Positions 391-47,269 of a stretch of 64,000 bases of DNA are shown here, piece after piece. Both the position numbers and the translations under genes were made by a program. The notes below the pieces were generated by a model. That model was not told where the DNA came from, made no database searches, and saw only the letters and a program-made list of their open reading frames with translations. Source of the stretch: Octopus vulgaris (Eukaryota); contig OX597829.1 of the NCBI GenBank assembly GCA_951406725.2, forward strand, positions 8,308,001-8,372,000, given 5' to 3'. Position 1 is the stretch's first letter, and every line of letters begins with the position of its first letter.

Positions 391-1824
391 TAATAATGAT
401 TTTCCAGTTTCATCAGTTAATTTTCTGAATGATAAAAAAAAAACAGCAACTTAAATTACTTTTATGATATTACTACTAAAGTTAAATAGTTGTGGTTGTA
501 GGAATTCTATCTATTATAGCTGTTATTGTTGTTCTTTTGCTGCTATTCCTCCTCCTGCTGCTGTTCGTTTTTTGTCGTAATGGTAGAAGTCGTTATTGTA
601 GTTGGTGTTGTCAATAATTTTGCTGTTATCGAGGCTGCCGTTACCATCGTTGCCGCTGTCATAATCGTCATTGTTGTCTTTCTGCCGTCCGTATTTCAAT
701 TTTTACCACACTGAAAATATTTGTTTTGACATAAAAAAACTGTCTAGTAATAATAGCAGTAGCAGTACTTTCATTAACATTAATAGTTCCTGCAATAATG
801 GTAGAAATATTTGTAGATTAAAATTTGAAGCTTTGATGTATTTAATATTGGAGACAGTGATTACGGCAGTGTTAATGTCCCCCTCCCCACAAATTTTGGG
901 CGTTGTGCCTAGAGTAGAGAGAATATTTACCTTCCCCTTTCCGTTCTGTCGAAGTCAGTATTGCTTTTCATTCTTCCAGTGTCCCCGACAAAATGTAATT
1001 GTACCAATCAAGTACTGCCGTCGGTTTAATCGACATCAAATGAAGATATATATATATAATACAAACTGAAGATACCTTTAGTTTTCTCTTCGAGATCATT
1101 GGCGCCGCGAAGAGAGAATTAATTCCTGCTTTGGGAATAACTGCTAATCCCATGCAAAGTTTCCTTGGCCTGTTTCTTGGAGAGGACACTCCAAAATAAT
1201 TTCACAATGAGCACCTAATATAGACTGAAGTAAAATTTACCAAAAGCAAGTCCATGATTTCACAAAATAGATGCTGGAGCAGAGGTGATATTGTTGTTTA
1301 TCTTCTGCCCTAGATTAACCTTAAGTGAGAAGACACATACTAGCCCTTGACTACCATATTTATTTCAGGATATCTAGAACAACATTAATTAATGTCTGCT
1401 TACCTTCTTTTTTTTTTAAGACGAAATTTGGCTGCTATTTTAAGCAAGAGGGACGACTCTATAAAAGCTTTCGTAGGTACTTGTTGATTGTTTGCTGTTT
1501 TCAAGATCTCAAAATCCAGCTTTATTAGTACAAACATCAACAGTAAAACCTTACCATCTACACTTTCATATTCCCTTTAGGAAAAACAATTTTTTTTACA
1601 CTTTAAACTATTACCCCACCATCCCCCACTCTCTCTCTCTCCCTCTCTTTCCTTCCCTTTCTCTCTCTCTCTCCCCCCTCGACCTCAACTCTTCTGGTGA
1701 AATGTAAGAATGTTTGTAAGTTTAGCAGAATCTGCTTTATCTGTGTAGTCAAATAATCCCAGTCACGCTAAGAATGTTCAGGTTTTGACATAGTAAGAAT
1801 ACGTTTGTTTATATAAAAGAACCG

Positions 1825-2960
<1,136 letters not shown>

Positions 2961-3249
2961 TCTTTCCCCTCCCCCTCTCATATAGTATGACTGAGTATCT
3001 TTGTATATGAATGACCCTGCTAATGACATCCTACACAAAATGTCTTGGCATCGTACTCATATTAAAATTGGAAAATTTTGTTACCAATTTTCTTGTCAGT
3101 ATTGTCTTTTTGTTTACACATATATATGTAAATCTCCACTATTTTTCGCTTTTGCATTGCCCCATATGTTTTGCGTTCCTTATGACCTATAAAGAAATCA
3201 TCATCCCCACCACCACTACCACCACCACCACCGCGGCCGCCGCCGCCGC

Positions 3250-3312
<63 letters not shown>

Positions 3313-3324
3313 TAAAAGCGTTAC

Positions 3325-3361
<37 letters not shown>

Positions 3362-3921
3362 GAGTGAGAGAGCAGTGCATGCCATCAAAGTGACACTGGG
3401 GTAAAATATACGAAGCCCAGTATACCCATCATGACTACCCGTCTGATAAGGGTACACCAGGCACATGCATCACAACCATATGTGCACGACATTATACTCT
3501 CATATCAATATAAACAGCACATGACCTTGCAGGTGGGGTCCAGTTAGAATTTTCTTCTGGTCGAGTAACCCATCCTTCTCAAAATGTCCCTGAATAAGGA
3601 TTGTTTAAGGATGTTGAACGAAACACCCATGTTTCCAGAGGTGAATTATTCAAACCCCAAAGAATTCCTCTCAATACATGGCTATGATGCTCCCCCACTA
3701 CTTCTGCTCCTGATCAGAGATGCACATATCGTCAGTCACTAAGGGACATGCTCAACTGGTTACGGTCAAGCAACTGACAAGTAAATCTGTGGTATTGAGC
3801 AGAATATTTGCTGTAGCCCATCTTTTATACCAAGACAAAACAACGTACAGGATAACATGATAACACTTCCAATAAGTTAAGATAAGAAGCCCAGAGAGCC
3901 ACTGCCAGGTACTGCATCAGG
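3362..3921. mobile_element. ~560 bp non-coding interspersed element inserted in an (ATT)n tract
   Basis: Complex sequence with (ATT)n directly on both sides, no ORF; family not identified. Confidence 0.55.
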
Positions 3922-9192: not shown

Positions 9193-9285
9193 TATGCGAG
9201 GTGGTGCTGAAAAGGGAATCGTGATATATATTTATATATATATATATATCACGATTCCCTTTATATATATATATATATTCCCTTT

Positions 9286-9612
9286 ATAATATTAATTAGA
9301 GACAAAACCACTATTATGCAAATCAAACAAAGAAAGACTTAATCCAATACATAAAATTTTTTATATAAATTAAATATAATTAAGATTAATTAAGATATCC
9401 ACTACGATCGTAATGGATATCTTAATTAATCTTAATTATATTTAATTTATATAAAATTTTTATGTATTGGATTAAGTCTTTCTTTGTTTGATTTGCATAA
9501 TAGTGGTTTTGTCTCTAATTAATATTATATTATATTTTACTATAAAATTGGATTCAATCCTAAATCTGATTTTTCCCTGTAAATTTGGATTTATTCCCTA
9601 ATATTTATTATT
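9286..9612 (+). mobile_element. Fold-back hairpin element (~120 bp arms, ~80 bp tail), family P copy 1
   Basis: Near-perfect palindrome 9286-9529 centred on TACGATCGTA; 17 bp direct repeat TATATATTCCCTTTATA at 9272-9288 and 9612-9628. Confidence 0.85.
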
Positions 9613-9621
9613 ATATATTCC

Positions 9622-9681
<60 letters not shown>

Positions 9682-14134: not shown

Positions 14135-14690
14135 TAGTTGAATGAATTATCCTAGTATGGATAATTCGGTTAACCGATACCCGGGTAGCAAATTCACGTC
14201 AGAAAAACACGGTTGAAGCTACATGCCAAGGGCAGAGATCACGTGCTTTCGTGTGGAAATTTGTGTTTTTTTTAATAGAAATAAATGAAAGAATGGAGTT
14301 GAACGACGATTTAACATAATTCCTTTATTCGCGACATATGTTTCGAAGACTGCATATTCCTAATTTTGAAGGAAAAAGGGGTGCATTATGCCGCCTTCTC
14401 ATCAGGAAAGACTTATGTCAGCATCATGATGAACAAAAACTTTTAGATGACTGCCCACACGGGGTCCATAGCGATAAATGGATTTATCGCTATGGACTCC
14501 GTGTGGGCAGTCATCTAAAAGTTTTTGTTCATCATGATGATGACATAAGTTCCTTGTCTTTCCTGATGAGAAGGCGGCATAATGCACCCCTTATTCCTTC
14601 AAAATTAGGAATATGCAGTCTTCGAAACATATGTCGAGAATAAAGGAATTTTGTTAAATCGTCGTTCAACTCCATTCTTTCATTTATTTG
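14133..14690 (-). mobile_element. Fold-back hairpin element (~200 bp arms, ~145 bp tail on the left) within (TA)n
   Basis: Palindrome ~14278-14689 centred near 14480 (GCGATAAATGGATTTATCGC), with few mismatches and one small indel; a hammerhead motif in each arm. Confidence 0.9.
14559..14640 (+). ncRNA. Minimal hammerhead ribozyme motif (mirror copy on minus strand at ~14331-14410)
   Basis: TTTC-CTGATGA-GAAGGC..(branched loop)..GTCTTC-GAAA-CATATG-TC-GAGA, followed by AATAAA. Core intact, GUC triplet. Confidence 0.8.
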
Positions 14691-19740: not shown

Positions 19741-20171
19741 TATCATCGCCACAACCACTACACAATCATGAGAACAAATATTATGAATCAGATATTTATA
19801 GGGTTAATTTATATATGAGTTTGTGCGTGTGTTCTATATATAAATATGTATATATAATGTATATATATACATGTATATATCTGTATTTATGTATATTAAA
19901 CTTTTTAATACTTTTTGATAGTTATATATATATTTTTTTAATTATAAATATAAATTAATAATTTTAATTTCAAATTTAAATAATTTAAATTTTTAAATTT
20001 TATACTTTATATATTTTGTATATTATATTTTTATTTTTATGTTTTGGGTTATGTTTTTCACTGTTTGATTTGCCTATTAGTGGTTTTATCTCTAATCTAA
20101 TTCATATATATCTATCTATCTATCTATATATATATACATATATAATTTGTATACATTTGTATATATAATGT

Positions 20172-23999: not shown

Positions 24000-24195
24000 C
24001 TTTATTTAAAGCAGCAGAAAATTCAACAAACCCTGTTACTCTGAGTTTCCCGTTGCAATAGGAACGGCAACGGGAAACTCAGAGTAACAGGTTTTGTTGA
24101 ATTTTCTGCTGCTTTAAATAAAGCATATTACTCTACCACTGGTATTTGAGTACTCTTTTTTTCCACCTTGTTTCACATTTATGTGTTTACTCCGG
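24000..24195 (+). mobile_element. Fold-back hairpin (~57 bp arms, ~70 bp tail) within (TA)n
   Basis: 24000-24056 pairs with 24067-24123; the right arm starts with a hammerhead 3' half GA-ACG GCAA CGG-GAAA-CTCAGAG-TA. Confidence 0.85.
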
Positions 24196-24328
24196 TATAT
24201 ATATATATATATAAATACATACATAGATATATACAATTACATATTTCTTTCTTTCTTTCTTTGTTTCTTTCCTTCTTTTCTTCTTTCTTTCTTTTTTCTT
24301 TCTTGCTTTCGTTCCCTCTTTCTTTATT

Positions 24329-30396: not shown

Positions 30397-30603
30397 CCAT
30401 GTTGATTCGTTAGCTACTGCACGCATTTTTTTTCTCTCCTTCTTTCTGTGTTTTTCTCTCTCTGTGTATCTTTCTGTTGAAGAGCGTAGGCTCGAAACGT
30501 TAAAGACTTGTTTTATTTATATTTCCTGAGCGCCATACTAATACAATTGTTCGTTTGTTTTCCACCTGCCTTCGTCTTTTGTTTATTTTCATAAAGTTTC
30601 CCG
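30394..30603 (+). mobile_element. Family H, copy 3
   Basis: TCTTT-CTGTTGAA-GAGCGTAGGCTC-GAAA-CG-TT-AAAGA at 30469-30506; (TA)n on both sides. Confidence 0.85.
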
Positions 30604-30642
<39 letters not shown>

Positions 30643-30650
<8 letters not shown>

Positions 30651-30895
30651 TATTAGAGACAAAACCACTATTTTGCAAAACAAACAAGGAAAGACTTAAT
30701 CAATACATAAAATTTTAATAAATAGACTATTTATTAAAATTTTATGTATTGATTAAGTCTTTCCTTGTTTGTTTTGCAAAATAGTGGTTTTGTCTCTAAT
30801 AATATTTTATAATATTTTACTATAAAATTGGATTTAATCCTAAATCTGATTTTTTCCCTGTAAATTTGGATTTATTCCCTAATATTTATTATTTA
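30643..30895 (+). mobile_element. Fold-back hairpin element, family P copy 2 (~83 bp arms, same tail)
   Basis: Palindrome centred near 30726 (AATAGACTATT); tail nearly identical to 9530-9612; (TA)n on both sides. Confidence 0.88.
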
Positions 30896-46988: not shown

Positions 46989-47181
46989 ATGTCTGTGAGT
47001 AATATTTCGAACTAGTGAGTATTTCAATACTGATGTATTGAGTAGAGCAGTTTGGGCTACCTAATGTCATCCGCAGTTGGGGTATATTTCCGGTGGATCC
47101 ACTTCAGGAATTCCGCAGTGTTAGTTGAGATAATAATCGATTAAAGAAACAGAAGATGGAATTGGTATAACTCTTTATTTC

Positions 47182-47269
47182 GTACGACGATCATTTCGAC
47201 CCATCCTGCGACTGTCATTAATGGGTGGGATGCTGTGCATCATATTGCAATCTGAGTCACATCAGGTAC
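47182..47269 (-). ncRNA. Hammerhead-like motif, slightly decayed
   Basis: Minus GTAC-CTGATGT-GACTCA..TGGGTC-GAAA-TGATCG-TC-GTAC, then AATAAA. Confidence 0.65.

What the first reader, a model, noticed from the sequence alone, without database searches (positions are those of the whole stretch)
9272..9628. Same element, two hairpin lengths: variable centre, fixed outer boundary
Seen: 9286-9612 and 30643-30895 share arms and tail. The inverted arm stops at the same point about 80 bp before the 3' end, but the arms are ~120 versus ~83 bp. Copy 1 folds exactly on TACGATCGTA, which resembles a hammerhead stem III palindrome plus GUA (compare TGATCG-TC at ~47190). It is flanked by a 17 bp direct repeat. 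A tail-less related piece lies at ~20060-20100. Inference: hairpins are made de novo at each insertion, so this is not a MITE with fixed TIRs, and the ribozyme palindrome may nucleate fold-back.
Basis: partly seen in the sequence, partly recalled or inferred. Interest (0 to 1): 0.7.

Follow-up and report, generated by a model that had tools for sequence, protein, structure and literature searches.

The report
Penelope retroelement start copied twice, head-to-head
These hairpins are back-to-back pieces of the ribozyme-bearing start of a Penelope-type jumping gene, and the way hundreds of copies vary suggests that the enzyme likely copies one RNA twice, from two fixed start points onto the two cut DNA strands, and that the two copies are then likely stitched together.

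Summary
Both hairpins are short insertions of a Hydra-clade Penelope-like element (PLE) in (TA)n; long copies carry the RT and GIY-YIG frame. The predicted hammerhead is there, and it is not a MITE. Inverted end plus one-sided tail is a published PLE feature, and this scan met such hairpins before on other DNA. Fold-back on the ribozyme palindrome is not the rule: 1 of 87 junctions sits on it, and the tail-less arm is the longer in 32 of 87 pairs. What the copies add: 151 of 155 head-to-head pairs have exactly one tail; arms share subfamily (96 of 96) and splice state (19 spliced, 8 unspliced, 0 mixed); many short copies lack a 1.1-kb GT-AG intron and stop at the likely transcription start, so sense RNA was the template; 68 of 258 arms stop just 3' of the hammerhead cut site, which a second family does not repeat. 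Best model, inferred: two primings, 80 nt apart, on one RNA, joined by microhomology.

The parts
9272..9288 (+). left copy of a 17-bp target-site duplication in a TA tract
   Evidence: sequence; picked up by the flank scan (L001)
9289..9411 (-). copy 1, inverted tail-less arm: element 5' leader from the hammerhead stem III palindrome to the first fixed end (site 1)
9403..9412 (.). junction of the two arms on the hammerhead stem III palindrome plus the GTA cut triplet
   Evidence: same motif inside the full hammerhead of longer copies
9404..9529 (+). copy 1, direct arm up to site 1
9530..9611 (+). copy 1 tail, about 80 nt between site 1 and site 2; in a long copy the ORF start codon follows about 55 nt later
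   Evidence: L155
9612..9628 (+). right copy of the 17-bp target-site duplication
30641..30725 (-). copy 2 (another subfamily), inverted tail-less arm; does not reach the hammerhead
30727..30893 (+). copy 2, direct arm plus tail, ending in (TA)n
20033..20101 (+). older solo tail-less piece ending at site 1, 82-85% alike

Best explanation
The hairpins are head-to-head pairs of 5'-leader pieces of a Hydra-clade Penelope-like retroelement, likely made when the element's protein cuts both strands of a (TA)n tract and likely primes reverse transcription from each cut end at two fixed internal sites of one RNA, after which the two cDNA ends are likely joined by microhomology. Shown: element identity, two fixed outer ends about 80 nt apart, one of each per pair, independently varying inner ends, precise intron loss, same subfamily and splice state in both arms. 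Inferred: staggered cut of about 14-17 nt (from target duplications); one cDNA starts at site 1 and the other at site 2, so only the second carries the tail; the site-2 cDNA reads through site 1 by displacing the first; each cDNA stops on its own (at the RNA 5' end, at the hammerhead, or elsewhere); end joining with microhomology or templated filler closes the gap. Short copies come largely from the spliced mRNA leader, long ones from the unspliced 3' repeat. The ribozyme palindrome is only an occasional annealing site, as in copy 1.
For: Identity: long copies hold RT and GIY-YIG frames with DKT, CxCX5C, CxxC and CxH motifs next to this end. One-tail rule: 151 of 155 distinct pairs, including 63 of 65 picked by the tail, 34 of 35 picked by the short end, 19 of 19 picked by the ribozyme; 19 of 19 pairs in an unrelated family have no second full tail. 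Independent inner ends: of 87 direct pairs the tail arm is longer in 23, the tail-less arm in 32, within 10 nt in 32; second family 4, 7 and 8 of 19. One template: same subfamily in 96 of 96 and 44 of 44 scorable pairs; splice state 19 spliced, 8 unspliced, 0 mixed (after dropping duplicate loci); L251 has the same foreign piece in both arms. Sense RNA: 26-nt exon 1, GT donor, 1116-nt intron, AG acceptor in L337; 33 exact spliced and 25 exact unspliced junctions in subfamily A. Joining: microhomology of 3 nt or more in 18 of 43 filler-free junctions against 12% in the null. Target duplications of about 14-17 nt at 6 loci read by eye from 11 flagged of 155. In vitro precedent: a Poseidon PLE cuts and extends both strands and starts at two internal sites that delimit the tail (PMC11167929).
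Against: No biochemical or RNA-end data here. Pairs within 10 nt of symmetry are in excess (32 against 13 by permutation) and arms share 13 rare variants, which fold-back or later gene conversion would also give. L048 differs between arms at two subfamily-diagnostic sites and L002 at one, ambiguously, so some pairs used two RNAs. 4 of 155 pairs break the one-tail rule. 59 of 102 junctions scored as having filler, a number inflated by imperfect references. Later one-sided deletion inside palindromes (established knowledge, recalled) could create part of the asymmetry and was not excluded. Subfamilies may have been active at different times, which weakens the 96 of 96 result.
Confidence: 0.7

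Rival explanations
1. Fold-back (self-priming): one cDNA folds on itself at a palindrome or microhomology and copies itself; the other outer end is supplied by a short second cDNA, or asymmetry arises later by central deletion.
For: Excess of symmetric junctions (32 of 87); shared rare variants and shared foreign piece in both arms; junctions on palindromes (copy 1, L003, L018, L103, L132). Self-priming was proposed for PLE head-to-head palindromes in PMC3846280.
Against: A strand primed at the tail end cannot yield a partner longer than itself, and a strand primed at site 1 holds no tail to copy; the tail-less arm is over 30 nt longer in 21 of 87 pairs and often runs exactly to exon 1. The antisense-template version does not fit 19 pairs made of spliced sense RNA. 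L048 has arms from different variants. Even the hybrid form needs two primings.
Confidence: 0.15
2. Two separate RNAs, one per subunit of an asymmetric protein dimer, each with an assigned start site; both usually come from the same source locus.
For: L048 (and perhaps L002) have discordant arms; a dimer is predicted for the Poseidon protein (PMC11167929); an earlier unchecked note on this genome reports halves from different parents.
Against: No mixed subfamily (0 of 96) or mixed splice state (0 of 27) pairs; within subfamily A 16 of 17 and 9 of 10 pairs are concordant at segregating variants; the one-tail rule needs an extra assumption.
Confidence: 0.13
3. A MITE or fold-back DNA transposon with fixed inverted ends and internal deletions.
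For: Inverted arms with a fixed outer boundary and TA flanks.
Against: One-sided tail, solo arms, precise intron loss, hammerhead, RT-GIY-YIG frame in long copies, 14-17-nt duplications.
Confidence: 0.01

Closest known systems
Hydra clade of C-terminal EN+ Penelope-like elements (PMC8557442; passages and section 15 read, supplements not read)
   Same: RT then GIY-YIG; DKT; CxCX5C linker; CxxC and CxH near the end; no CCHH; hammerhead; (TA)n targets; inverted 5'-truncated copy and one-sided tail.
   Different: Tail about 80 nt against 30-40 nt; element about 5.5 kb with a 1.1-kb intron in the repeat against under 3 kb; RWK reads KWK; Asn-rich stretch between RT and EN; most copies are leader-only hairpins.
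Poseidon of the green anole, in vitro (PMC11167929; parts 1 and 2 of 4 read)
   Same: Two internal RT start sites delimit the tail; both DNA strands cut and extended; AT-rich target; hammerhead in the repeat.
   Different: There the start sites lie inside the ORF, here about 55 and 135 nt before it; the parts read do not pair the two sites within one insertion or explain the inverted copy; no reads ended at the ribozyme cut site there, whereas here arms pile up just 3' of it.
Penelope elements of Adineta vaga and Drosophila virilis (PMC3846280, PMC2377424, PMC4209133; passages read)
   Same: Head-to-head inverted repeat with palindromic junction, optional tail, target duplications, Inr-like start, intron in the leader ending at hammerhead helix I, palindromic helix III, Asn-rich inserts.
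   Different: PMC3846280 explains the palindromes by self-priming on an antisense template and stresses intron retention; here spliced sense copies are as common as unspliced ones and asymmetry runs both ways.
L1 twin priming (recalled, no call)
   Same: Both target strands prime on one RNA; cDNAs joined by microhomology; 5' inversion.
   Different: L1 primes at the poly(A) tail plus a variable internal site and gives an inversion without duplication; here both sites are fixed and the overlap is duplicated as a hairpin.

Membership tests
Penelope-like element, EN+ | single frame with RT and C-terminal GIY-YIG linked to this terminal repeat | tested here: met
   L337, same subfamily as copy 1: frame pieces 1642-3829 between an inverted short arm and the tailed end; 36-39% to P0001; L189, L155 likewise. 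All copies seen are broken; Pfam gave no significant hit.
Penelope-like element, EN+ | inverted 5'-truncated repeat and one-sided tail | tested here: met
   151 of 155 pairs
Penelope-like element, EN+ | type I hammerhead with palindromic helix III in the repeat | tested here: met
   core invariant and 81 of 81 cells paired in 7 subfamily representatives, one compensatory pair in helix III. Rfam gave no hammerhead hit and the monomer's lowest-energy fold is not the hammerhead.
Penelope-like element, EN+ | self-cleavage of the hammerhead | not testable with these tools
   needs an RNA assay; only the pile-up of arm ends bears on it
Penelope-like element, EN+ | spliceosomal intron in the leader | tested here: met
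   GT-AG intron of 1116 nt in L337; spliced and unspliced genomic forms
Hydra clade | DKT motif, CxCX5C linker, CxxC and CxH in the EN, no CCHH | tested here: met
   SDKTR, C(T/S/N)CRDKSKC, CYLC, KCRH; no cysteine pair inside the GIY-YIG hairpin (definition)
Hydra clade | N-terminal RWK motif | tested here: inconclusive
   reads RIKWK in L155; the homolog P0001 has RWK
Hydra clade | (TA)n insertion bias | tested here: met
   813 exact short ends run into TA; flanks
Hydra clade | placement in the RT tree | not tested
   no reference Hydra proteins were fetched
Naiad clade | N-terminal EN, no canonical hammerhead | tested here: not met
   EN is C-terminal and a hammerhead is present
MITE | fixed terminal inverted repeats at both ends, no RNA step | tested here: not met
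   one-sided tail, solos, intron loss

The most novel reading that the evidence does not exclude
PLE insertion runs by obligate double priming: the two cut strands start at two fixed sites of one sense RNA, one each, which explains in one step the inverted repeat, the one-sided tail and the target duplication; priming inside the spliced mRNA leader yields strong-stop-like short hairpins, and the hammerhead (cut or folded) sets a main stopping point in vivo.
Probability: 0.5. Interest if true: 0.72.

Novelty: new member of a known kind. Interest (0 to 1): 0.5.

Why it matters
The structure is known, but how PLEs make it is named as open in PMC8557442 (section 15). This family gives a large natural test set: it argues against the published antisense self-priming idea, links the two in vitro start sites to the two arms of single insertions, and shows that spliced sense RNA is copied. 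That makes a simple two-marker assay decisive. It also warns that such hairpins can be misfiled as MITEs or microRNA precursors (copy 2 drew a sub-threshold MIR2599 match).

Tried and rejected
Rfam on window plus L038: only sub-threshold microRNA-like hits on microsatellites and hairpins among the 150 rows shown of 273; no hammerhead hit on the motif alone. Pfam on four frame pieces: nothing significant. Protein search for longer relatives: 1 hit, P0001, unnamed. Sequencing runs: no RNA holder listed; no reads were laid, so expression and RNA ends stay open. Naiad was the first guess and failed (EN position, hammerhead). A host trans-spliced leader was considered for the 26-nt 5' piece and rejected, since it lies in the element itself before a GT donor. 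A cap-derived extra G could not be told from junction microhomology. The first structure string was mis-indexed and redone. In one search five secondary arms and L150 were dropped before counting; one search supersedes it with better references. The hammerhead pile-up did not repeat in the second family (4 ends after, 7 before the cut site; ends cluster about 44-47 nt upstream instead). Earlier-findings search by sequence was empty.

Full report
Observation. Copy 1 is an inverted repeat at 9285-9528 (97.6% over 245 nt) centred on TACGATCGTA, with an 80-nt tail on the right and a 17-bp direct repeat at 9272-9288 and 9612-9628. Copy 2 has exact 85-bp arms at 30641-30811 and the same tail. A tail-less, older piece lies at 20033-20119. 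The window lies in a 2.8-Gb genome, G000; I did not establish the species. The 49-nt tail motif occurs exactly 619 times and the short end running into TA 813 times, with no match to the reversed controls.

What it is. Longer copies read CCAC-CTGATGA-helix II-GAAACGATCGTA-GTGG, a type I hammerhead with a palindromic helix III. In 7 subfamily representatives the core is invariant, all 81 cells pair, and helix III keeps its palindrome through one two-sided change. Rfam does not detect it and the monomer does not fold into it at lowest energy, as expected for motifs thought to act as dimers (PMC4209133, passages). The longest copies carry a broken frame with RT, a CxCX5C linker and a GIY-YIG domain (L189; L155; L337, copy 1's subfamily), matching the Hydra clade as described in PMC8557442 (passages). 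In L155 the tail runs on into the start codon about 55 nt later, so the hairpin sequence is the element's 5' leader, which is also repeated at its 3' end.

Splicing. Upstream of the hammerhead, copies have either a 26-nt piece or a long AT-rich region ending in TTTTAG. The 26-nt piece lies in long copies before a GT donor; in L337 the intron is 1116 nt. In subfamily A there are 33 exact spliced and 25 exact unspliced junctions genome-wide. Of 29 distinct spliced arms that reach exon 1, none runs more than about 7 nt upstream of it (compared by eye), so this is the likely transcription start. Precise intron loss shows a sense RNA template.

Population of copies. Loci came from five searches: likeness to copy 1, ribozyme region, tail (90 of 619 fetched), intron and short end (70 of 813 fetched); the two pattern samples are the first hits on contigs C1-C3. 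Of 155 distinct head-to-head pairs, 151 have one arm ending at site 1 and one at site 2; 2 have two tails and 2 none. With free choice of site, half of the partners would match. In 87 direct pairs from the two pattern samples the tail arm is longer by over 10 nt in 23, the tail-less arm in 32, and 32 are within 10 nt (13 expected by permutation); by over 30 nt the counts are 18 and 21. The arms are of one subfamily in 96 of 96 and 44 of 44 scorable pairs, against 59% and 73% mixing at random; within subfamily A 16 of 17 and 9 of 10 agree, the exceptions being L048 and, ambiguously, L002. Splice state agrees in all 27 distinct pairs where both arms cross the junction (19 and 8; one search lists 21 and 11 rows with duplicates). 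Arms differ at 76 private positions and share 13 rare ones in 7194 compared (107 rows including a few duplicate or spurious pairings), so they are not being homogenised strongly. Microhomology of 3 nt or more is seen in 18 of 43 filler-free junctions against 12% in the null; 59 of 102 scored as having filler, partly through imperfect references. Six loci show 14-17-nt target duplications by eye among 11 flagged of 155; pure TA flanks hide the rest.

Where arms stop. Of 258 arms, about 35 stop within 15 nt of the start of exon 1, 26 run on into the intron, and 68 stop in the 20 nt after the hammerhead cut site against 9 in the 20 nt before it. The next 20 nt are more AT-rich yet stop fewer arms (14% against 38% of those arriving). 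Most ends lie 4-11 nt after the cut site and only 2 on it, which fits stalling at helix I as well as cleavage with trimming. Only L103 of the 87 pairs is centred on the helix III palindrome.

Replication. A second, unrelated hammerhead family (window 24000-24197; 5137 exact tail matches) shows the same plan in 30 loci: 19 pairs, none with two full tails, tail-less arm longer in 7, tail arm in 4, symmetric in 8; it shows no pile-up after its ribozyme.

Mechanism. One self-copying strand cannot make a partner longer than itself or add a tail it does not hold, so two priming events are needed (inference). Concordance of subfamily, splice state and a foreign piece (L251) points to one RNA in most cases. 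I therefore favour: staggered cut of (TA)n, priming at site 1 from one strand and at site 2 from the other, displacement read-through, independent stops, and microhomology joining. In copy 1 two cDNA ends would anneal over 8-10 bp of palindrome. This agrees with in vitro cutting and extension of both strands from two start sites (PMC11167929) and resembles L1 twin priming (recalled). It is not shown biochemically, and a hybrid fold-back route or later deletion is not excluded.

Known and new. Inverted copy, tail, TA bias, leader intron and hammerhead are published PLE traits. PMC3846280 (passages) reads the palindromes as self-priming on an antisense template; the spliced pairs here speak against that. 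Six paper searches listed no paper stating a one-tail-per-pair rule or twin priming for PLEs; 'twin priming' had no occurrence in the PLE papers listed. Older reviews in subscription journals and all supplements were not seen and may hold this. An octopus repeat annotation (PMC13282606, passages) does not mention Hydra elements or hairpins. Earlier notes of this scan describe like hairpins as ordinary PLE ends.

Verdict. A new family of a known kind; the feature itself is ordinary for PLEs, but the copy statistics bear on an open mechanism. Interest 0.5.

Noticed in passing
window 24000-24197: A second, unrelated hammerhead-bearing family with the same hairpin plus 78-nt tail in (TA)n; 5137 exact tail matches; arm ends cluster at a short palindrome about 45 nt before its ribozyme cut site.
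   Followed up: partly
window about 14270-14690: A third family: imperfect hairpin with arms of about 200 bp ending in TA.
   Followed up: no
window 30455-30605: A hammerhead-like element of another family directly before the TA tract that holds copy 2.
   Followed up: no
window 9212-9265: A small inverted repeat with a TA centre just left of copy 1; its end supplies the non-TA letters of the target duplication.
   Followed up: no
L251:800-1580: Both arms carry the same foreign piece of about 147 bp joined at the element's splice acceptor, as if a host exon was spliced in before copying.
   Followed up: partly
L155:5000-9600: One insertion built from several frame pieces in both orientations, a sign of repeated template jumps; it preserves the tail-to-start-codon junction, where the RNA can fold a long stem across site 2 (z -2.1).
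   Followed up: partly
L337:2900-3200, L338, L189: Asn-rich stretch between RT and endonuclease, like the inserts described in rotifer Penelope elements.
   Followed up: no
L047, L055, L045, L010: Three-piece junctions with an extra partial copy of the leader between the arms.
   Followed up: no
window 47165-47230, minus strand: Degenerate hammerhead-like stretch, not of this family.
   Followed up: partly
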